DNA of 64,000 bases, taken from the IMG/VR virus record IMGVR_UViG_3300009136_000002, positions 1 through 64,000 of that record. One strand, given 5' to 3'. The notes beneath the pieces were generated by a model. The model saw only the letters and a list, made by a program, of their open reading frames with translations, was not told where the DNA came from and made no database searches. How positions within the stretch are numbered: position 1 is the first letter of the stretch; every line of letters begins with the position of its first letter. This document shows positions 13,058 to 20,805 of the stretch, one piece after another. This DNA comes from a virus. The position numbers and the translations under genes are program-made.

Positions 13058-13450
13058 TCAACTCCGGCCTGATTCGGCCCCAGGCACATCGTCAATCCAT
13101 TTGCCTTCTACTAGCTCTGTTCTTACTGAATCTCCGTCAAAATGCTGTGTGCTGGCCTCGATGAATCTGCACCGCCGACCATAGCTCCTGAACCTGTGCT
13201 TGCTCCCTGGCAAGATCCTGATCGAGTCACCTTCTCTTAACAGGCGATTCGTTATGTTCCCTCTCTCGTCAACTGTGTCTAGCTCCAAGAGCCCTTCAAT
13301 GACCAGGAAGGTTTCATCCTTGACCCGATGATAGTGAAACTTTCCCTTGCTCGACCACAGACGAGCCTCACAGGTCAAGACCTTCATGCAGTACAGGTCA
13401 TTGTTGGTCACGATGCGCTCGTGGCCCCAAGTTTTTGCCTCTACTCTCAT
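13058..13450 (-). CDS. Cupin-fold protein (sugar isomerase/MPI-like)
   Basis: KTWGHE...FHYHRVKDETFLVIEG...GDSIRILPGSKHRF cupin motifs; start set at ATG 13450. Confidence 0.75.
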   Translation of the reverse strand: MRVEAKTWGHERIVTNNDLYCMKVLTCEARLWSSKGKFHYHRVKDETFLVIEGLLELDTVDERGNITNRLLREGDSIRILPGSKHRFRSYGRRCRFIEASTQHFDGDSVRTELVEGKWIDDVPGAESGRS

Positions 13451-13626
13451 GTGAACACCAATTTCAGGACTCGTCCAGCTACGCAGTAGACATAGTAGAG
13501 CGCCAGGAAGTAGATAACGCCCTGGAGGAGCCAGATCCCAATGAAACCGCATTTATCCAATGTGTTCTCCCGATGGTGAGGTGGGTATCAAGGTGGATTA
13601 TTCCACAAGGGCAAAGCTAAGTCAAC

Positions 13627-13968
13627 TTAATAGCCAGATGATTCAATATCTGCAGCCGGATCAACTGCCTCAGATTGGTTGTCTGTCTCCGGTACGGGCT
13701 CGAATGCGTCCTGTTCCCTGGCGGAACCCAACCCCCCTCCAGCGACACTCGGCCTCTCAGGGGCGCATTGTTCATCATAGGCCTTGTGGTGCTTGTTGTA
13801 TTCTTTCTCAACTGCCTGGGGATCTCGGATATACTCGGTAAGATCCTCGATCAGCTTATTTTTGGACGTATAGGCGAAGTTGGCACAGCCGACATTGACA
13901 ATAAATCCCCCGCTCCCTGCGGGTCTGATCTCAATGGTTCTCATGGGTTCCATTTTGAATTCCATCAT
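13627..13968 (-). CDS. Hypothetical protein
   Basis: AAAGGAG RBS; ATGA overlap with upstream gene. Confidence 0.55.
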   Translation of the reverse strand: MMEFKMEPMRTIEIRPAGSGGFIVNVGCANFAYTSKNKLIEDLTEYIRDPQAVEKEYNKHHKAYDEQCAPERPSVAGGGLGSAREQDAFEPVPETDNQSEAVDPAADIESSGY

Positions 13969-14162
13969 TTCTCCTTTCTGAATTTGTCTACCTCTGGACA
14001 GGTCGCGTGATGCGGCATATAGGATCTTGCCATCACCGCCTGACCCTCGGCGTTCATAATGATCCTGGTTTCACTCTTGGCATCGGCAGGAATGTTCTTG
14101 CCTCTGACCGTCTTGAACCAAAGGATACTGGCTCCACAACCTTTACAAGTTGACTCACGCAT
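13965..14162 (-). CDS. Small zinc-binding phage protein
   Basis: CKGCG...HHATC ligands. Confidence 0.6.
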   Translation of the reverse strand: MRESTCKGCGASILWFKTVRGKNIPADAKSETRIIMNAEGQAVMARSYMPHHATCPEVDKFRKEK

Positions 14163-14691
14163 AATACATATTCCTCAGTCTCGGTCTTGTTGGGCTCTCT
14201 TCTATATCAGCCAAAAATCTCTTTTCATCAAACTTCCTGAATCCTCGAAACGCTGGCATTCCCACGATCACAGGCCAGGGCTGTGGCAGCATCTTTAACC
14301 CTCCTCGAACCTGGGGCTCTGAGGAGTAGTCTGCCAAGTCCTCTACTTTGGCCGTAGTAGTTGCGTACAGGCCTCCAGGCTCCAGATTACCGCAACCGCG
14401 TTGTTCGGTCTGTATGTCCTGGGGATCGTCGATGTAGTAGATTTTTCCGCGTATCTCAGGCTTGAGATCCGTGGTGAGGAGTCCATAGATTTGCTCGACA
14501 AAAAAATAGGCGAACACAACTGGATCAGGTTCGCCTTTCTCTCTAGTAACGCAGTAAATCTTGTCTCCCCAATTCATCTTTTTTAGATCGCGCTTGGGAA
14601 CGCGGCGGGAGACACCCATCTTCTCGGCCTCTTGCATAAAAGACCGTGGGGAATAGTACACAGCCCCTACCCAATGAAGCCAAACAATCAT
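14155..14691 (-). CDS. Hypothetical protein, possible EVE/PUA-like domain
   Basis: MNWGDKIYCV...VFAYFFV resembles the EVE/ASCH core; GGAGGG RBS. Confidence 0.45.
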   Translation of the reverse strand: MIVWLHWVGAVYYSPRSFMQEAEKMGVSRRVPKRDLKKMNWGDKIYCVTREKGEPDPVVFAYFFVEQIYGLLTTDLKPEIRGKIYYIDDPQDIQTEQRGCGNLEPGGLYATTTAKVEDLADYSSEPQVRGGLKMLPQPWPVIVGMPAFRGFRKFDEKRFLADIEESPTRPRLRNMYYA

Positions 14692-14692
14692 A

Positions 14693-14962
14693 TTAACCCT
14701 CCAAGATTGCTTTCAATTTTTTCTGATCGTGATCCTTCCTGCTCCAATGCTTGACCTTTGCTTTTATCCTCAACTGTGCTGCATCCTGGTATTTATTCAA
14801 AAGGTCGATGAATTCAGTATAATCTCCCCACCCGCGCTCTTCACCTTGCGGGGGGTTACGATAGCATGGATCACAAAGAGCATATCGTGTAGTCTCGCGC
14901 TGGCAACGCCAACACGGATGGGGAGGATAGTGTGTACGTTTAACTCGCTTTCCAGCCCCCAT
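14693..14962 (-). CDS. Zinc-finger hypothetical protein
   Basis: CWRC...CDPC. Confidence 0.5.
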   Translation of the reverse strand: MGAGKRVKRTHYPPHPCWRCQRETTRYALCDPCYRNPPQGEERGWGDYTEFIDLLNKYQDAAQLRIKAKVKHWSRKDHDQKKLKAILEG

Positions 14963-14965
14963 AGC

Positions 14966-16576
14966 CTACCTGTTTGCTATGAAGTCTCCGATTATGGCTG
15001 GGGCGGCAGTATCAAAGCCAACTACGTCCATCATCCCACCATCGGTAGGATCTGCGATGGAAAACTCGTTGCTTGCCAGCCCAACGACGACTAGCTTGGC
15101 CGGAATATCCATCTTCCGGCGGTAGTCCTCAAGCGCCTGAACCGGATGAACCTTCCCAGCCCAGGTTTCATTATCGGTGTAGATCACGAAGGCATCGGCC
15201 TCGACCTTATTCTTCAAGGCCCAAAGCATAGGCAAGGCGCAATCAGTCCCGCCAAAGGGCATCCCCTGGCAATGCTTAATCACATCGTCAAGCCTCTGAT
15301 GCCTGGACATATTGATCTTGCGAAGCTCATGGGAGAAAGCCATGACCGCGCATTTCTCCTCGGTCTTGAATGTGACCATAGCCATCGCGCAAGCTCCGTC
15401 ACGAGGAGTAAGGTAGGGCATCCCATTGATCCCTTCCCAATCCATAGAGCTAGAAACGTCCAGGCCGATCACAATCCGCTTACCTGTGGGCTCAACATTT
15501 TCAAATGTCTTGTAGAATCCTGCATCCAGGGCATCCACAATATCCGGCACGGCATCCCAATCACCCTTTCCCAGGTAGCCGCGACCTTCGCCATAGATTT
15601 TAAGCGCAGCCAGGACGTTAATCGGATGAATGCGGGCCTCTCGCAACTGATTGGGACTAACGAGCCTGTCCCGAACCCTCTCAATTACGTCCCAATTCCC
15701 TGGAATCAAGAGGCCGACCTTACCCATGTTCCCCAGGTTCCGGATCATGGCGGTCATAGGCATCCTCTGGAGCAAGGCCTCCCATACGTCCTTCTCAGTA
15801 AGGAAGTCAGTAGGGATTGCCTCTCGCGGCAGATTGTAAAGCTGAATGAAGTTGACGATCTCATTCTTGTGCTTTGCTTTCTTGGCGTACTCGAATCCAG
15901 CCACGACATTCAGGGGGTGAGCCCCTCTCCATTTATCAGAGTTGGGAAGCTCAAGCTCCCCGCTCACGATCCATTTATACAGCGCATTCCTGTTTGCATC
16001 GTCGGTCTTGGGGTGAGACAGTCGGAGGAGATCCCTGTGGCTCCAGCCATCACGCTGCTGGTATTTCACGGCCTGATAAGCCAACTTCTCCACATCTTTG
16101 TCCTGATACCAATGCTTGACAGCATTGCGGAGTCCTCGACCCCACCCGCGAAAGGCCTTAACGTACTTGGCGAAATGGAACAGGTGCGTCCCGATCCGCG
16201 CTACCTTTGGCAGAGCGGCCAGGGCCATCGCTCGTGTCTCTTCATCACCCAGGCCAGCGCACATTGCCAGGACGAATAGGGCCGGATCATTCTTAGGGGC
16301 TCGTCCCTTAGTAGAAACGTCCACAACAGCACCGACAACTTTAGGGCCAGCCTTCTCGATCAAACGAGCAACGGCCTTTGCGCTGTCGATGGTTAGCTTG
16401 CGCTCTTTGATGTAGTAGGTTCCGCCTTCCGTTCCCAGCATCAGAAAGCGCATAAGCCGCTCTCCATCACCTACTGGAAACACATACCCACCCGCGCTAT
16501 CCCTTATCATCTGCTTGCCAGGAATCGGCTCGGTCTGTGGGGTTTCCTTTGTCTGAAAATGCTTGGTGTAGTCCAT
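14966..16576 (-). CDS. rsr: Ro60/Rsr ribonucleoprotein (TROVE + vWA domains)
   Basis: SAGGYVF, RFLMLGTEGGTYY, RGWGRGLR, KYQQRDGWSHRDLLRLSHP, MPMTAMIRNLG, vWA MIDAS DVSSSM, GGTDCALPM, YTDNETW, DVVGFD; AAAGGAGG RBS. Confidence 0.95.
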   Translation of the reverse strand: MDYTKHFQTKETPQTEPIPGKQMIRDSAGGYVFPVGDGERLMRFLMLGTEGGTYYIKERKLTIDSAKAVARLIEKAGPKVVGAVVDVSTKGRAPKNDPALFVLAMCAGLGDEETRAMALAALPKVARIGTHLFHFAKYVKAFRGWGRGLRNAVKHWYQDKDVEKLAYQAVKYQQRDGWSHRDLLRLSHPKTDDANRNALYKWIVSGELELPNSDKWRGAHPLNVVAGFEYAKKAKHKNEIVNFIQLYNLPREAIPTDFLTEKDVWEALLQRMPMTAMIRNLGNMGKVGLLIPGNWDVIERVRDRLVSPNQLREARIHPINVLAALKIYGEGRGYLGKGDWDAVPDIVDALDAGFYKTFENVEPTGKRIVIGLDVSSSMDWEGINGMPYLTPRDGACAMAMVTFKTEEKCAVMAFSHELRKINMSRHQRLDDVIKHCQGMPFGGTDCALPMLWALKNKVEADAFVIYTDNETWAGKVHPVQALEDYRRKMDIPAKLVVVGLASNEFSIADPTDGGMMDVVGFDTAAPAIIGDFIANR

Positions 16577-16600
16577 TTCGACCCTCCTTTCAGGGTAAGC

Positions 16601-16668
16601 GGGGCAAGGAGTGAGTAAGGGATCGTTTTCAATTAGCAGTTGAATGATAACCCTAGCTCTTCGGCCCC
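16601..16668 (-). ncRNA. Y-RNA-like module 5, carrying an anticodon-like stem-loop
   Basis: GGGGCCGAAG...AGGGTTATC / GATCCCT...CCTTGCCCC bulged-C stem; apical TTCAA-CTGCTAA-TTGAA. Confidence 0.75.
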
Positions 16669-16679
16669 TGGTTAAAAGT

Positions 16680-16738
16680 CGGGCAAGTAGCGAACCAGCA
16701 GCTTTTCCTGATTAGGGTAACGCTGGCTCTTCGGCCCG
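16680..16738 (-). ncRNA. Y-RNA-like module 4 (minimal, 59 nt)
   Basis: CGGGCCGAAGAGCCAGC...GCTGGTTCGCTACTTGCCCG; same terminal Ro-type stem. Confidence 0.7.
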
Positions 16739-16749
16739 TATAAAACTGA

Positions 16750-16858
16750 GTGGGCGAGTAGCGTCAAGGGATTGACCCCACCCTCGCGGGTGGCAGACCC
16801 TTTGTTGCTTAGGGGGTCTGTTAGGACTCGAACCTGATAACCCTTAACTTCGGCCCAC
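16750..16858 (-). ncRNA. YrlA-like Y RNA (module 3)
   Basis: GTGGGCCGAAG..AAGGGTTATC, T-arm AGG-TTCGAGT-CCT, looped acceptor-like stem CAGACCC/GGGTCTG, third hairpin CCACCC-GCGA-GGGTGG, then ..CTACTCGCCCAC; order matches YrlA. Confidence 0.8.
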
Positions 16859-16870
16859 GCATTTTCGAGT

Positions 16871-17000
16871 TGGGGAGAGTGGTGGGACTCGAACCCACGG
16901 CCTCGCCATTTGCATTGGATAACCCTTAGCCATCGACCCGCAAGCGGGTAAGGAGCGGAAAGGGAATTTTCGCGCTCTAACCGACTGAGCTACACTCTCC
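16871..17000 (-). ncRNA. tRNA/Y-RNA chimera (module 2): full cloverleaf with a 52-nt Ro-binding hairpin inserted in the anticodon stem
   Basis: GGAGAGTG/CACTCTCC-CCA acceptor, GCTC-AGTCGGTTA-GAGC D arm, CG^CCA-ATGCAAA-TGGCG anticodon arm, GTGGG-TTCGAGT-CCCAC T arm. Confidence 0.85.
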
Positions 17001-17005
17001 ATAGT

Positions 17006-17072
17006 TGGGCTAGGAATCATAGGACGGATTGGGGCAGGCGCGGCCTGCAGATAACCATCCTACTTCGGCCCA
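17006..17072 (-). ncRNA. Y-RNA-like module 1
   Basis: TGGGCCGAAGTAGGATGGTTATC...CCGTCCTA...CCTAGCCCA with GCAGGC/GCCTGC apical hairpin; starts right after the recT stop. Confidence 0.7.
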
Positions 17073-18452
17073 TTACTCTTGTTCTTGTGATACTCCAAAG
17101 GTTGTGAATTCCGTGTCAGGATCGGTAGCAAAGCAATGTGAGAAATAGCCTGTGTACCGTCCCATATACATTCGCTTAGTTAAAATGGCCCAATCGTGCC
17201 ATGCTTTGAGCTGTATCCCAGCACCCTTGACAAACTTATCAATCTCCAGGGTGCGCTCGATGCTTGCCAACTGACCATCTAGTTCTTCCGGCGTTGCTTC
17301 TTCCGGCTCTTGCCCTGCGCCAAAGAGCGGCGGCTGTGCTGGTGGTTCAACTGGCGGCTCAACTGGCGGCTCAACTGGCGGCTCAACTGGCGGCTGCGGC
17401 GGTGGATCGACCATACTGAGCGGGCCTGTTGGTTCCGGCGATGCGAATGAAGGCCTCGGCCACGGTGTTCCCCAAAAGCGTTTGTGCTTGTCGTCCAATT
17501 CCTTGAGAACAGGGCTATCCGGCGGTAATAGGCCCAGCCGGACGATGTTCTCTTCTTTTGCGAGGAACGTGGTGAAGCCACTCGTTCTCAACCCGAAAAA
17601 TTCTGCTATAAATTTTTCATCATCGGTTTCCGGTACAACTGGCGCTGGCGGTGGGGGCGGCACTATTGTATCAGCCAGCTTGTCCAGCCCTGTCTTTCCT
17701 GGTTCCTCGATAATCTCGCCTGTTTGTAAGTCAACGCCACTAATTACATCTAGTTGCTGATCTATCCCTGCCTCCGCTCTTTCGTCGAGACTCACGGCCA
17801 GGGACAGGGAATTGTCCACGACTGAGGACGGTAGGTACTTGACGCTGTGCCTAATTGCTGTCTTTAAGGCCATTGCATCAAAGTCTGTTACCCAGGGGCC
17901 GGATCTTCCCGCTGGTGAGCGTTGCTGAACCGCCTTGATGTGGCTCATTGGGAGAACCCTGAATTGAAACCCACCTTCCTTGTAAAATGCGATACAGTAA
18001 GCTGCTACCTGATCTCCGCGATCATGCTCCTCGTATGCTGGCTTGTGATGAATGTGGGGGTTAGATCCATGCTCGTAACTGAAACTATCTTTGGCATAGA
18101 CTATGTGAGCCTCGATGTTCCGAAACTTGCCGGATCTCATAGCCAAGTCGATCAGACCCATATACCCTGGGATAAACGTGACCTTCTTGGCAAAGGGAAC
18201 CAAATGCGCCATATTTCTGACTCCATCCGGCTCCAGCCCCAACTGAGCGCACGTTAAGACCGCAGACAGTAAGCTCTGAGGCGTACAGTCCAGTAGCCCA
18301 GGCGTTAGCTGCACGGAGGTCATAACGATCCGGCTGAACCTGTCCACTCCGATCTGTTTTGGTAATGCAGCCGTGAGGGATTTTGAATGCTGATGGAGGA
18401 GCTGCTTTACCGATTGGATCTTGGTCTGTTGTGTCGTAAGTTGTCCGGTCAT
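17073..18452 (-). CDS. recT: RecT-family single-strand annealing protein with Pro-rich C-terminal extension
   Basis: ALPKQIGVDRF, CTPQSL, QLGLEP, AHLVPF, GYMGLIDLAMRSG, PWVTDFDAMALKTAIR; ATG 18452 overlaps the yqaJ stop. Confidence 0.9.
   Translation of the reverse strand: MTGQLTTQQTKIQSVKQLLHQHSKSLTAALPKQIGVDRFSRIVMTSVQLTPGLLDCTPQSLLSAVLTCAQLGLEPDGVRNMAHLVPFAKKVTFIPGYMGLIDLAMRSGKFRNIEAHIVYAKDSFSYEHGSNPHIHHKPAYEEHDRGDQVAAYCIAFYKEGGFQFRVLPMSHIKAVQQRSPAGRSGPWVTDFDAMALKTAIRHSVKYLPSSVVDNSLSLAVSLDERAEAGIDQQLDVISGVDLQTGEIIEEPGKTGLDKLADTIVPPPPPAPVVPETDDEKFIAEFFGLRTSGFTTFLAKEENIVRLGLLPPDSPVLKELDDKHKRFWGTPWPRPSFASPEPTGPLSMVDPPPQPPVEPPVEPPVEPPVEPPAQPPLFGAGQEPEEATPEELDGQLASIERTLEIDKFVKGAGIQLKAWHDWAILTKRMYMGRYTGYFSHCFATDPDTEFTTFGVSQEQE
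17351..17395. repeat. 12-bp tandem repeat CTGGCGGCTCAA, about 3.7 copies (encodes VEPP repeats in RecT)
   Basis: Read directly from the sequence. Confidence 0.85.
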
Positions 18453-19336
18453 GCCTTTCTCCTTAATGTTCTGACAGTTGCGGCATCTACCCAATATGCC
18501 TCTCTCTCATGGGCTACCCAGCTATACGTTACTCCGTTTGACAACACGCCGTAGCTTGCCAACTCTAGCTTGGACTTGATCTTGTTCTCCAGGGCTGTCT
18601 TTTCCTTTCTGAGCTGCTTTTCCTTCGCTTTGATCTCTTGTAAGTCCTCATCCCACCAAAGAGCCTCCCCAGGTAGCGGAATGGATTCTCCGCTATCTTT
18701 GGGGTACTGGAAATGAAGGGCTTCTTTTGATGAATCTGAGTCGTCTACCGGAGGAGGATCTTGATTCTGAATTCGCTGCCAAAACTTGCCCTCTTCCTCG
18801 ATAAGAATTTCCACAAAGCGGTCATTGCGTTGAACATCAACGATAAGATCGCTGTAGTCACCGAAGAATACAGCCAATGATCCCCACTCACTCCCTGTGA
18901 CCGCCATTTCATGTTGGATCTGAACCTGATAATAAAGCGGTGGCTCCTCAAGCCAATTACTCTTCATTCCAGGCCCACCAGTTTTGATCTGCAAGACCCC
19001 CTGGCCTCGATCATCAAAGGGCTCGATCAGGCGGTCTATGGTTGCCATCATAAATTCATGCTCTGGATGCTGGTATATCGTAAAGTTGTCCGGCTTTATC
19101 GTGTCCCTACCAGTTTCCCTCTCGTAGTAGGCTGCAACTGCATCTTCGAGATCCAGACCCCATTGCATTCGCTGGTTCATTTCCTGCTCTGGCATCATCT
19201 TCAACTTGCGAAGATACAGCGATAGAGGGGATACCCAGGGGGAGATCCCCAAGACCGCCGCAGCCTCAGACCCGCCGATCCCACCCATCCGAGCCTCAAG
19301 CCATTCGTCACGATTTTTATGAGATTTCCATTTCAT
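18449..19336 (-). CDS. YqaJ-like viral recombinase exonuclease
   Basis: EWLEARMGGIGGSEAAAVLG.SPW.SPL.LY, WGLDLE, ATIDR, LQIKT, YYQVQIQH; adjacent to recT. Confidence 0.9.
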   Translation of the reverse strand: MKWKSHKNRDEWLEARMGGIGGSEAAAVLGISPWVSPLSLYLRKLKMMPEQEMNQRMQWGLDLEDAVAAYYERETGRDTIKPDNFTIYQHPEHEFMMATIDRLIEPFDDRGQGVLQIKTGGPGMKSNWLEEPPLYYQVQIQHEMAVTGSEWGSLAVFFGDYSDLIVDVQRNDRFVEILIEEEGKFWQRIQNQDPPPVDDSDSSKEALHFQYPKDSGESIPLPGEALWWDEDLQEIKAKEKQLRKEKTALENKIKSKLELASYGVLSNGVTYSWVAHEREAYWVDAATVRTLRRKA

Positions 19337-19965: not shown

Positions 19966-20805
19966 ATGAAATGGCTCCGTCTATGGATTGAATGGGCTCA
20001 CGACCCAAAAATTATCGCTATGCCTGAGTCTATGCAGCGCAGACATATTGTTCTCCTGTGTTTGCGCCGCCAAGTAGATACCTCTACCCTCAGCGATGAA
20101 GAGATAGCATCCTATATGCGAATAGGCATGGAGGATCTTCAAGAAACCAAAGAGTTATTTACACGAAAAAACTTCATAGATAACGGCTGGAACGTACTGG
20201 CATGGGATGATCGTCAATATGATAGCGATAGCTCAACACTCCGTACTCGCAAATGGCGAAAAAGACAGAGGAAAAAAGAACGTGACAAAAAGGAAACGTC
20301 ACAGGAACGTCACGGTGACGGCGTAGATACAGATACAGAAACAGATAAAGACTATACTTCCTCTAAAGAAGAGGAAGTATTGTCAGAACCTCCGGCTCAG
20401 ACCCCCCCTTGCCCGCATGGAAAAATAAAAGAGCTTTACAACAAATACTGCAAATCTCTTCCAGGCCTCCTTACAATGTCAAAACAACGGAAGGTTAAAC
20501 TCAAAACTAGATGGGGTGAGCATCCGAATCTTGATTGGTGGCAAGCCCTCTTTGAAACAGTAGAGCAAATACCATTCTGTTGTGGTGACAATGATCGAGG
20601 ATGGAAAGCCTCTTTCGATTGGCTAGTAGCAAATGATACAAATGCTCTCAAGGTAATGGAGGGAAAGTATTTCAAGCAGGAAGTTTTGAAAAAATCTGAT
20701 GGTCTTGTTGGTTGTAAAAAATGTACCCTAAGATCGGGAGCATCAACTATGGATCTCGATGAACACGGAGTTTGCTGGTCATGCAGAGAAAAAAGACGTT
20801 TTTGA
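19966..20805 (+). CDS. Phage replication initiator / replisome organizer
   Basis: MKWLRL..DPKI N-terminus, W..RQY.SDSST.R.RKWR, DTDTETD linker, C-terminal GWKASFDWL...KVMEGKY. Confidence 0.8.
   Translation: MKWLRLWIEWAHDPKIIAMPESMQRRHIVLLCLRRQVDTSTLSDEEIASYMRIGMEDLQETKELFTRKNFIDNGWNVLAWDDRQYDSDSSTLRTRKWRKRQRKKERDKKETSQERHGDGVDTDTETDKDYTSSKEEEVLSEPPAQTPPCPHGKIKELYNKYCKSLPGLLTMSKQRKVKLKTRWGEHPNLDWWQALFETVEQIPFCCGDNDRGWKASFDWLVANDTNALKVMEGKYFKQEVLKKSDGLVGCKKCTLRSGASTMDLDEHGVCWSCREKRRF

What the first reader, a model, noticed from the sequence alone, without database searches (positions are those of the whole stretch)
14966..17072. Phage Ro60 preceded by a tandem array of five Y-RNA modules with one shared handle and different payloads
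Seen: the entire recT-ro60 gap (16601-17072, - strand) is filled by five hairpin units separated by only 5-12 nt. Each has GGGCCGAAG..GGTTATC (or a close variant) on one strand and ..C(T/C)(T/C/A)GCCC-like sequence on the other. These pair into a bulged-C helix like the GUC-C-GA/UUGAC Ro60 site of Y RNAs. Stem sequences differ but still pair (TAGGATGG/CCGTCCTA, GCCAGC/GCTGGT, AAGGG/CCCTT). The apical parts differ completely: a GC hairpin, a full tRNA, a YrlA-type tRNA mimic, a tiny loop and an anticodon stem-loop. Known: bacterial Ro60 loci usually have one or two Y RNAs (YrlA/YrlB) that tether Ro60 to effectors such as PNPase, and some phages encode Ro60 plus YrlA. Inference: this is a modular, array-encoded adaptor repertoire that loads one phage Ro60 with interchangeable RNAs, plausibly as tRNA decoys or tethers against host RNA-damaging defences.
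Basis: partly seen in the sequence, partly recalled or inferred. Interest (0 to 1): 0.88.

Follow-up and report, generated by a model that had tools for sequence, protein, structure and literature searches.

The report
Phage Ro60 with five Y RNAs
A 75-kb uncultured phage carries a standard Ro60 RNA-binding ring protein. Directly upstream are five small RNA genes that share one Ro60-docking "handle" but carry different cargo, one of them wired like a real tRNA. This is an enlarged, cassette-swapping version of a known protein-RNA partnership whose job in phages is still unknown.

Summary
The 495-nt recT-ro60 gap contains five structured units on the minus strand. U1, U3, U4 and U5 start with GGGCCGAAG, which matches the published Ro60-site motif GNCGAAN0-1G. 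This is followed by an upper stem and UUA(U/C)C, and each unit closes with ...GCCC. U2 is not a hairpin with a tRNA on top. It is a tRNA-shaped RNA with an 8-bp acceptor stem, a G-1:C73 pair and an encoded CCA. Its anticodon loop is replaced by the same handle, closed by a tetraloop.

The protein is a canonical Ro60 (E 4e-137 to Deinococcus Rsr). A covariance model of the handle hit 71 of 71 times on the Ro60 strand of Ro60 loci, and all 13 pairs covary. A near-identical phage (Ro60 98% aa) keeps five units, shows compensatory changes, and has U5 replaced by a different cassette. A 76% relative has four units in another order.

Typical Ro60 loci have 0-2 units, and four other viral contigs have five. 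This is a new variant of the known Ro60/Y-RNA system. The decoy function is untested.

This scan has reported similar arrays on other DNA before, including the tRNA-wired form.

The parts
14966..16576 (-). Ro60 (Rsr) gene, 536 aa: TROVE ring plus Ro60-type vWA domain
   Evidence: Pfam vWA_Ro60 1.6e-67 and TROVE 2.7e-41. Full-length matches to solved D. radiodurans Rsr 2nvo (4.4e-137), human Ro60 9nen (4.4e-134) and Xenopus Ro60 1yvp (3.8e-128).
16583..16589 (-). Shine-Dalgarno AAGGAGG of ro60, 6 nt before the ATG. The leader after unit 5 is nearly identical in L144 and L213.
   Evidence: Read directly.
16601..16668 (-). Unit 5: handle, UUAUC, then a 5-bp hairpin with the heptaloop CUGCUAA (anticodon-loop-like, GCU in the anticodon position)
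   Evidence: R1 44.3 bits, E 9e-9; fold z -2.65. The orthologue in L001 keeps the loop with a changed stem. In the 98% relative L213 this unit is replaced by a paralogue of unit 4.
16681..16737 (-). Unit 4: small Y RNA (YrlB-like) with handle, UUACC and a short loop
   Evidence: R1 42.2 bits, E 3e-8. The upper stem is kept through several paired changes in L213.
16752..16856 (-). Unit 3: handle, UUAUC, a T-arm-like hairpin (loop UUCGAGU) and two further hairpins, the last with a GNRA loop
   Evidence: Consensus fold with L001 and L144. L213 has compensatory changes in the T-like stem and in hairpin 2, and its hairpin 3 is one pair shorter but keeps a GNRA loop. It is not a YrlA by RF02553.
16871..17000 (-). 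Unit 2: tRNA-wired Y RNA. It has an 8-bp acceptor stem (G-1:C73), an encoded CCA, and canonical D and T arms. The anticodon loop is replaced by the Ro60 handle closed by a CUUG tetraloop. A variable-arm hairpin with loop AUGCAAA follows UUAUC.
   Evidence: Rfam tRNA 46.9 bits with a 65-nt insert. ARAGORN finds no standard tRNA. The same layout occurs in L001, L144, L143, L140 and L094, with 7 of 8 acceptor pairs showing double changes.
17007..17071 (-). Unit 1: small Y RNA with handle, UUAUC and a G+C-rich apical hairpin. It starts 1 nt after the recT stop codon.
   Evidence: R1 42.3 bits, E 3e-8; fold z -4.3. Present in L213 with changes only in loops. Absent from the four-unit arrays of L001 and L144.
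17073..18494 (-). recT, upstream gene of the same leftward operon (context)
   Evidence: Pfam RecT 8.3e-43.
18449..19336 (-). YqaJ-type exonuclease, partner of RecT (context)
   Evidence: Pfam YqaJ 1.4e-28.

Best explanation
The gap encodes a co-transcribed array of five Y RNAs, the non-coding partners of the Ro60 protein encoded immediately downstream. Each RNA carries the same docking module: a GGGC/GCCC lower stem, a CGAAG-containing internal loop, a covarying upper stem, and UUA(U/C)C. This module would load the RNA onto the outer face of the Ro60 ring. The variable part would decide what else the particle binds. Unit 2 presents a complete tRNA elbow with a free, tRNA-His-like acceptor end. 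Unit 3 presents a T-arm. Unit 5 presents an anticodon-like loop. Units 1 and 4 are plain hairpins. The units are probably released from the exo-recT-array-ro60 transcript by host enzymes, with RNase P at the 5' end of unit 2 and trimming up to the Ro60-protected stems elsewhere. Shown here: the sequence anatomy, the link to Ro60, covariation of the stems, and cassette turnover between relatives. Inferred: binding by Ro60, processing into separate RNAs, and the downstream role. That role could be tethering host exoribonucleases such as PNPase, as in Deinococcus and phage phiLo, and/or occupying host tRNA-recognising enzymes.
For: The protein is a canonical Ro60. GGGCCGAAG fits GNCGAAN0-1G, the motif that marks the Ro60 site of YrlA RNAs, which lie within 4 kb of Ro60 on the same strand (PMC4201824). 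All four exact copies lie in the gap. Model R1 gave 71 of 71 hits (E<0.01) on the Ro60 strand of 93 Ro60-selected loci. All 13 pairs showed double changes, 92.6% of cells were paired, and the covariation score was 0.574 against 0.18 for shuffles and about 0.1 for slid partners. The sequence-only MAFFT alignment already gave 0.40 against 0.19. Handles near Ro60 that are followed by UUAYC number 92, against about 3 expected. Phage L213 (Ro60 98% aa, 96.5% nt) keeps five units at the same spacing. It has compensatory changes in the V-arm, T stem, T-like stem and hairpin 2, and in the upper stem of unit 4. Unit 5 is replaced by another cassette, and the array is only 82.8% identical. L001 and L144 have four units in a different order. 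The tRNA-wired unit recurs in six viral contigs with a covarying 8-bp acceptor stem. A phage Ro60 has been shown to bind two upstream Y-like RNAs and to form complexes with host PNPase (PMC12135203). M. smegmatis YrlA and YrlB are processed from one precursor upstream of rsr (PMC4201824).
Against: There are no expression, processing or binding data, and the host is unknown. No promoter or terminator consensus was found in or next to the gap, so the units depend on read-through from recT. Rfam YrlA and Y_RNA models do not match. Unit 2 has CGAU instead of CGAA and a closed handle, and binding of such a form to Ro60 has not been shown. The units used to build R1 were chosen with a filter that required pairing, so part of the covariation is circular. 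The 52 new hits were fitted to the model's structure.
Confidence: 0.78

Rival explanations
1. The five structures are not separate RNAs. They are cis-acting Ro60-binding sites in the ro60 mRNA leader, letting Ro60 control its own translation or the stability of the recT-ro60 transcript.
For: The array has no recognisable promoter or terminator of its own and ends 24 nt before the ro60 start codon. The leader and Shine-Dalgarno after the last unit are conserved in L144 and L213.
Against: Characterised bacterial Y RNAs are likewise cut out of a precursor upstream of rsr (PMC4201824). In many bacterial loci the same units lie downstream of Ro60 (L027, L058, L061, L076). Unit 2 has tRNA ends with an encoded CCA, which makes sense only for a released RNA. 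The different payloads and cassette swapping are not needed for autoregulation.
Confidence: 0.1
2. The region is a decayed or unusual phage tRNA gene cluster: unit 2 is an intron-bearing tRNA and the others are tRNA fragments, with no functional link to Ro60.
For: Rfam calls unit 2 a tRNA (46.9 bits). ARAGORN in intron mode calls it tRNA-Leu with a 37-nt intron. Units 3 and 5 carry T-arm-like and anticodon-like hairpins. Some related arrays sit beside real tRNA genes (L126, L180, L121).
Against: The 'intron' is the conserved Ro60 handle with its own covarying stems, and no anticodon stem can form around it. Standard ARAGORN finds no tRNA in the 75-kb genome. The handle model hits only the Ro60 strand of Ro60 loci. 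The stems are kept by compensatory changes, so the region is not decaying.
Confidence: 0.04
3. The hairpins are generic intergenic repeats, such as terminator/attenuator or REP-like elements, or recombination sites for the neighbouring RecT system.
For: They are tandem, stem-forming and sit next to recT. The order of units differs between relatives.
Against: They have no U-tracts and no terminator calls. The motif occurs nowhere else in the genome. The association is with Ro60, in many loci that lack RecT.
Confidence: 0.03

Closest known systems
Bacterial Rsr (Ro60) with YrlA and YrlB Y RNAs (S. Typhimurium rsr-yrlBA-rtcBA; M. smegmatis; 22 phages, mostly mycobacteriophages; Chen et al. 2014, PMC4201824; Wang et al. 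2018, bioRxiv 10.1101/312249)
   Same: The RNAs are encoded next to Ro60 on the same strand. They carry the GNCGAAN0-1G motif on the 5' strand of the terminal stem. One RNA has a tRNA-like D/T/acceptor core and the others are small hairpins. They are processed from one precursor. The UA of UUAUC corresponds to the conserved UA noted in YrlA. The cultured Microbacterium phage FuzzBuster shows the ordinary two-unit form with the same handle and UUAYC.
   Different: There are five units instead of two. There is no RF02553-type YrlA (12.5 bits against 69). The tRNA-like member has the opposite opening: a free acceptor end with G-1 and an encoded CCA, and a closed Ro60 handle. Published YrlAs are described as circularly permuted tRNAs with closed acceptor stems and no CCA end. 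There are no rtcBA genes; the neighbours are recT and exo.
Thermus phage phiLo phiRo60 with Yrl1 and Yrl2 (NAR 2025, PMC12135203)
   Same: The phage Ro60 has Y-like RNAs with a CGAA motif encoded directly upstream. Binding and ternary complexes with host PNPase were shown in vitro.
   Different: phiLo has two RNAs. Its Ro60 is very distant from this one (E 1.3e-8, TROVE part only), whereas this protein is close to Deinococcus and even animal Ro60.
D. radiodurans Rsr-Yrn1-PNPase (RYPER), with four small RNAs encoded upstream of rsr
   Same: It is the closest solved protein (2nvo, 4.4e-137). Several small RNAs lie upstream of the gene, and the Y RNA acts as a tether and gate.
   Different: Only Yrn1 and Yrn2 are established Rsr partners. 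The Yrn1 tRNA-like part is arranged differently. It is a cellular stress system, not a phage one.
Vertebrate Y RNAs (up to four per genome) and nematode stem-bulge RNAs
   Same: [quoted passage not shown] Several paralogues share one handle with different loops.
   Different: They are separate Pol III genes with U-tails and have a single bulged C in the lower stem. The Rfam Y_RNA model does not match here. No tRNA-like payloads are known.
Coliphage Bas63 gp130, a Ro60-like protein upstream of a tRNA gene block, reported to counter the ppl defence gene (bioRxiv 2024, PMC11482910)
   Same: It is a phage Ro60-type protein next to tRNA-like genes, with a proposed counter-defence role.
   Different: It was identified by structural similarity only, its RNAs are uncharacterised, and no link to this lineage was tested here.

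Membership tests
Ro60/Rsr protein (TROVE family) | TROVE HEAT-repeat ring plus C-terminal Ro60-type vWA domain, full-length similarity to solved Ro60 proteins | tested here: met
   Pfam TROVE 2.7e-41 and vWA_Ro60 1.6e-67. PDB 2nvo, 9nen and 1yvp match over residues 11-533 at E<=4e-128.
Bacterial/phage Y RNA (Ro60-bound, YrlA/YrlB class) | Encoded within 4 kb of a Ro60 orthologue, on the same strand | tested here: met
   All five units lie 25-495 nt upstream of ro60 on the minus strand. Across 93 loci, 71 of 71 model hits are on the Ro60 strand.
Bacterial/phage Y RNA (Ro60-bound, YrlA/YrlB class) | GNCGAAN0-1G on the 5' strand of a stem closed by a 3' partner | tested here: met
   GCCGAAG is exact in U1, U3, U4 and U5. 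U2 has GUCGAUGG (one change, as in human Y4), and its L001 orthologue has GCCGAAGG.
Bacterial/phage Y RNA (Ro60-bound, YrlA/YrlB class) | Terminal stems conserved as structure (covariation) | tested here: met
   13 of 13 pairs have double changes, with a score of 0.574 against 0.18. Compensatory changes are seen in the 98% relative L213.
Bacterial/phage Y RNA (Ro60-bound, YrlA/YrlB class) | Bound by Ro60 and stabilised by it; accumulates as a discrete small RNA | not testable with these tools
   This needs immunoprecipitation or Northern blots. The host is unknown.
YrlA (Rfam RF02553) | Match to the covariance model at or above 69 bits | tested here: not met
   The best match in the 75-kb genome is 12.5 bits, E 0.6, and it spans U1 into U2. 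There was no hit in the E<=10 scan.
YrlA (Rfam RF02553) | tRNA-like core with D arm, T arm and acceptor stem | tested here: met
   U2 scores 46.9 bits against Rfam tRNA with canonical D and T loops. U3 has only a T-arm-like hairpin.
YrlA (Rfam RF02553) | Circularly permuted topology: RNA ends in the Ro60 stem, acceptor stem closed by a loop, no CCA end | tested here: not met
   U2 has open acceptor ends with an encoded CCA, and its Ro60 handle is closed by a tetraloop. The published description of the permuted form is in bioRxiv 10.1101/312249.
Decoding tRNA | Cloverleaf with an anticodon stem-loop at positions 27-43 | tested here: not met
   A 65-nt insert holding the handle replaces it. Standard ARAGORN finds no tRNA.
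Metazoan Y RNA / nematode sbRNA | Match to Rfam Y_RNA | tested here: not met
   No Y_RNA match at E<=10 in 16400-17250.
Metazoan Y RNA / nematode sbRNA | [quoted passage not shown] | tested here: met
   UUAUC occurs in four units and UUACC in one. The motif is as described in PMC4450293.
Metazoan Y RNA / nematode sbRNA | Lower stem with a single bulged C; Pol III U-tail | tested here: not met
   The handle has an asymmetric internal loop instead, and there are no U-tails.

The most novel reading that the evidence does not exclude
The array is a fast-evolving, swappable library of tRNA-part mimics displayed on one phage Ro60 ring: a tRNA-His-type acceptor end, a T-arm, and anticodon-like loops. 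Its purpose would be to intercept host enzymes that recognise or cut tRNAs, such as anticodon nucleases of anti-phage defence, or to recruit tRNA-handling enzymes. On this reading, the cassette exchange seen between phages whose Ro60 is 98% identical is the trace of an arms race. The shared GGNCGA(A/U)G-stem-UUA(U/C)C module would also mean that bacterial and phage Y RNAs and animal Y/sbRNAs are true homologues, not convergent look-alikes.
Probability: 0.2. Interest if true: 0.85.

Novelty: new variant of a known kind. Interest (0 to 1): 0.6.

Why it matters
Ro60 and Y RNAs occur from bacteria to humans, where Ro60 is a lupus/Sjogren autoantigen. What the tRNA-like part of bacterial Y RNAs binds is still an open question. 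This phage lineage separates the parts onto individual RNAs with one common handle: a full tRNA body with free ends, a T-arm alone, and an anticodon-like loop alone. It also exchanges them between close relatives. That gives a natural dissection set for pull-down experiments. It also hints that the payloads, not the handle, are under diversifying pressure. [quoted passage not shown] That is directly testable and differs from the published picture of YrlA as a closed, permuted tRNA. The UUA(U/C)C motif shared with animal Y RNAs and sbRNAs bears on whether the two groups share ancestry.

Tried and rejected
- Rfam at gathering threshold over the window gave only the tRNA hit for U2. At E<=10 over the gap, the other hits were noise (snoRNA, plastid UTR, a tmRNA fragment on the T-like arm of U3) and were rejected.
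- RF02553 searched directly gave one insignificant chimeric match.
- Megablast of 5.5 kb against 50,697 phage records found nothing.
- Promoter and terminator consensus scans were no better than shuffles and gave nothing in the gap.
- My first regex-plus-pairing unit finder made false calls: four outside the array in the window. I therefore used it only to pick training sequences and relied on the covariance model and on clustering.
- A first test for hairpins after UUAYC that required stems of at least 4 bp gave only a weak excess of 7-nt loops (22 against 10.8). A second test missed most cases because the stem often uses the last UC of UUAUC. The corrected test is.
- Aligning U3-type units from distant loci gave a poor consensus, so only the three close relatives were informative.
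- Two reviews (PMC10870794, PMC6542706) are not held, so statements about the usual number of Y RNAs rest on PMC4201824 and on my own counts.
- Downstream genes 14693-14962 and 14155-14691 have no Pfam or PHROG match, so no candidate effector gene was identified.
Full report
**What is there**

On the minus strand, recT (17073-18494, Pfam RecT 8.3e-43) is followed after one base by five structured units. After a 24-nt leader with AAGGAGG comes a 536-aa gene with TROVE and Ro60-type vWA domains. That protein matches solved Ro60 proteins over its full length. E-values are 4.4e-137 for D. radiodurans Rsr, 4.4e-134 for human Ro60 and 3.8e-128 for Xenopus Ro60. The match to the Thermus phage phiLo homologue is only 1.3e-8. 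The record is a single 75,155-bp viral contig with 49% G+C. CheckV rates it complete, and ARAGORN finds no standard tRNA.

**The units**

- U1: 17071-17007
- U2: 17000-16871
- U3: 16856-16752
- U4: 16737-16681
- U5: 16668-16601

The spacers between them are 6, 14, 14 and 12 nt.

U1, U3, U4 and U5 begin with GGGCCGAAG. These are the only four exact copies in the window, and about 0.5 would be expected by chance. Next come a 7-9-nt upper-stem strand and then UUAUC (UUACC in U4). Each unit ends with the complementary upper-stem strand, 7-9 mostly pyrimidine bases, and GCCC. All fold with their ends paired. GCCGAAG fits GNCGAAN0-1G, the motif that Chen et al. 2014 use to mark the Ro60 site of YrlA RNAs (PMC4201824).

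Rfam scores U2 as a tRNA (46.9 bits) with a 65-nt insert in place of the anticodon arm. The insert contains the handle in reverse order. First comes the upper-stem 3' strand CCCUU, then the pyrimidine strand and ACCC. A CUUG-type loop follows, and then GGGUCGAUGG, AAGGG and UUAUC. After that come a small hairpin (loop AUGCAAA), the T arm, the acceptor 3' strand and CCA. In the relative L001 the same position reads ...CUUGCCC-GCAA-GGGCCGAAGG..., a perfect handle closed by a GNRA loop.

So U2 is a YrlA-like RNA opened at the acceptor stem rather than at the Ro60 stem. Published YrlAs are described as circularly permuted tRNAs with a closed acceptor stem and no free CCA (bioRxiv 10.1101/312249).

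The same layout occurs in six viral contigs. Their consensus has an 8-bp acceptor stem in which 7 of 8 pairs show double changes. Position -1 pairs with position 73, as G:C in five cases and A:U in one. CCA is encoded in the window, L001 and L144. A G-1:C73 pair is the hallmark of bacterial tRNA-His. That is established knowledge, and whether it matters here is untested.

**Are the units a real RNA family tied to Ro60?**

I collected Ro60 loci by protein similarity: 19 viral, 70 genomic and 80 metagenomic. I collected further viral contigs by the handle pattern.

- I aligned 41 small units from many loci by sequence only. The alignment already shows the two helices with a covariation score of 0.40, against 0.19 for shuffles.
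- The covariance model R1 built from it finds only U1, U4 and U5 in the window.
- In 93 Ro60-selected loci, R1 gives 71 hits at E<0.01. All are on the Ro60 strand and most lie within a few hundred bases of the gene.
- In the alignment of those hits, all 13 pairs show double changes and 92.6% of cells pair. The score is 0.574, against 0.18 for shuffles and about 0.1 for slid partners.
- Caveats: my training units were chosen with a pairing filter, and the second alignment is fitted to the model.
- Independently, GGNCGA(A/U) followed by UUAYC occurs 92 times within 1 kb of Ro60 on its strand, where about 3 would be expected from the rest of the loci.

**Close relatives**

*L213* (Ro60 98% aa, 96.5% nt) has five units at the same spacing, but its array is only 82.8% identical.

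- In U1, the changes fall only in loops.
- The V-arm of U2 changes CCA/UGG to CCU/AGG, and the loop becomes CUGCAAA.
- The T stem changes GUGGG/CCCAC to GCGGG/CCCGC.
- The T-like stem of U3 changes A-U to C-G, and two pairs of its second hairpin are exchanged.
- The upper stem of U4 is rebuilt with pairing kept.
- U5 is replaced by a paralogue of U4.

*L001* (Ro60 76%) and *L144* have four units in the order anticodon-loop unit, tRNA-wired unit, T-arm unit, small unit. In the window, the anticodon-loop unit is last and U1 is an extra unit. This is direct evidence for conserved structure, for payload exchange and for reordering.

**How unusual is five?**

- In the 88 first protein-selected loci, the counts of handle-plus-UUAYC units near Ro60 are: 0 units in 36 loci, 1 in 26, 2 in 16, 3 in 7, 4 in 2 and 5 in 1.
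- In the 80 metagenomic loci, the largest cluster sizes are: 0 in 17 loci, 1 in 42, 2 in 17, 3 in 2, 4 in 1 and 5 in 1. The two largest belong to this phage's own lineage.
- Among contigs found by the RNA pattern, four others have five-unit clusters next to Ro60 (L180, L106, L126, L140) and several have four.

So five is the upper tail of a recurrent phenomenon. The ordinary state is one or two, as in Microbacterium phage FuzzBuster and in the literature.

**Two further observations**

First, UUA(U/C)C directly after the upper stem is exactly the motif, and the position, described for nematode sbRNAs and vertebrate Y RNAs (PMC4450293, PMC4726728). Human Y4 begins GGCUGGUCCGAUGGUAGUGGGUUAUC (PMC7012775), which is very like the handles here. 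In the papers I could search, UUAUC is not mentioned for bacterial Y RNAs. The YrlA structure paper does note a conserved UA in that region.

Second, the hairpin that follows UUAYC sits in the variable-arm position of the tRNA-like forms. In 39 of 263 distinct units it has a heptaloop of the form (C/A)U-NNN-AA, against 1.06 +/- 0.96 in shuffles. The middle triplets vary: GUU in 8, GCU in 7, UGA in 5, GCA in 3, GUA in 3, and the rest are singletons. This is the pattern of an anticodon loop. U5 (CUGCUAA on a 5-bp stem) and the V-arm of U2 (AUGCAAA) belong to this class. Its meaning is unknown.

**Mechanism**

The best-supported reading is five Y RNAs that dock on the phage Ro60 through the common handle and differ in what else they bind.

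- *Shown:* anatomy, linkage to Ro60, covariation and cassette turnover.
- *Known from related systems:* Ro60 binds such stems. Y RNA tethers Ro60 to PNPase in Deinococcus. Phage phiLo Ro60 binds two upstream Y-like RNAs and forms complexes with host PNPase (PMC12135203). YrlA is handled by tRNA enzymes, and M. smegmatis YrlA is cut by RNase P and receives CCA (PMC4201824).
- *Inferred:* processing of this array, binding of the closed-handle U2, and any counter-defence role.

The decoy idea is in print as a hypothesis for YrlA (PMC7790460). A Ro60-like protein of coliphage Bas63 was reported to counter the ppl defence gene (PMC11482910). Nothing here tests either idea. No RNA-repair or nuclease gene was recognisable next to ro60.

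**Standing**

The finding is a new variant of the known Ro60/Y-RNA system, not a new kind of system. Earlier reports of this scan describe similar arrays on other DNA, including a tRNA-wired member in a sludge phage and larger arrays beside very divergent Ro60-like proteins. I reached the U2 topology from the sequence before reading those notes, and I confirmed it on my own loci.

Noticed in passing
window 16601-17071 and 263 units from loci L001-L212: The hairpin right after UUAYC often carries a heptaloop of the form (C/A)U-NNN-AA with a variable middle triplet. GUU, GCU, UGA, GCA and GUA are the most frequent triplets. It occurs in 39 of 263 units against about 1 in shuffles. It looks like an anticodon loop placed at the variable-arm position.
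   Followed up: partly
window 16871-17000; L001:2658-2784; L144:6986-7116; L143:12323-12456; L140:2555-2682; L094:1064-1191: All six tRNA-wired Y RNAs have an extra base pair between position -1 and the discriminator (G:C in five). This is the identity mark of bacterial tRNA-His. Three of them encode CCA. Histidylation or HisRS binding is a possibility that was not tested.
   Followed up: partly
window 17340-17400 (minus strand, inside recT): The C-terminal part of RecT contains four tandem copies of a 12-nt unit encoding PPVE. The near-identical phage L213 differs here by a 15-nt deletion.
   Followed up: no
L213 (Ga0209991_10000065) versus window 13466-17811: The two phages are mosaic. The ro60 gene is 96.5% nt identical, the recT 3' part 86.2%, the RNA array 82.8%, and the 1.5 kb downstream of ro60 only 67.8%.
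   Followed up: partly
L180:400-7500, L126:4300-5500, L121:7400-8620: In other viral contigs the Ro60 RNA arrays sit beside or interleaved with genuine tRNA genes. L180 has more than 30 tRNAs and a permuted tmRNA (71.4 bits) next to its five-unit array.
   Followed up: no
window spacers 17001-17006, 16857-16870, 16738-16751; L001 and L144 spacers: Most spacers start with ACU (or AACU) immediately after the 3' end of a unit, and they are A/U-rich. This may be a conserved processing signal.
   Followed up: no
L001:2470-2585 and L144:6865-6913: The four-unit relatives have an A/T-rich spacer between the upstream gene and the first unit. It could hold a dedicated promoter, with transcription starting near the first G of the handle. 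The window has no such spacer.
   Followed up: no
window 13058-13552 (-) and 19966-20805 (+): There is a cupin protein resembling cysteine dioxygenase (PHROG 7851, 1.7e-18) downstream of ro60. A DnaD-like/replication-initiator O-like protein (1.3e-34) is transcribed divergently from the exo-recT-ro60 operon.
   Followed up: no
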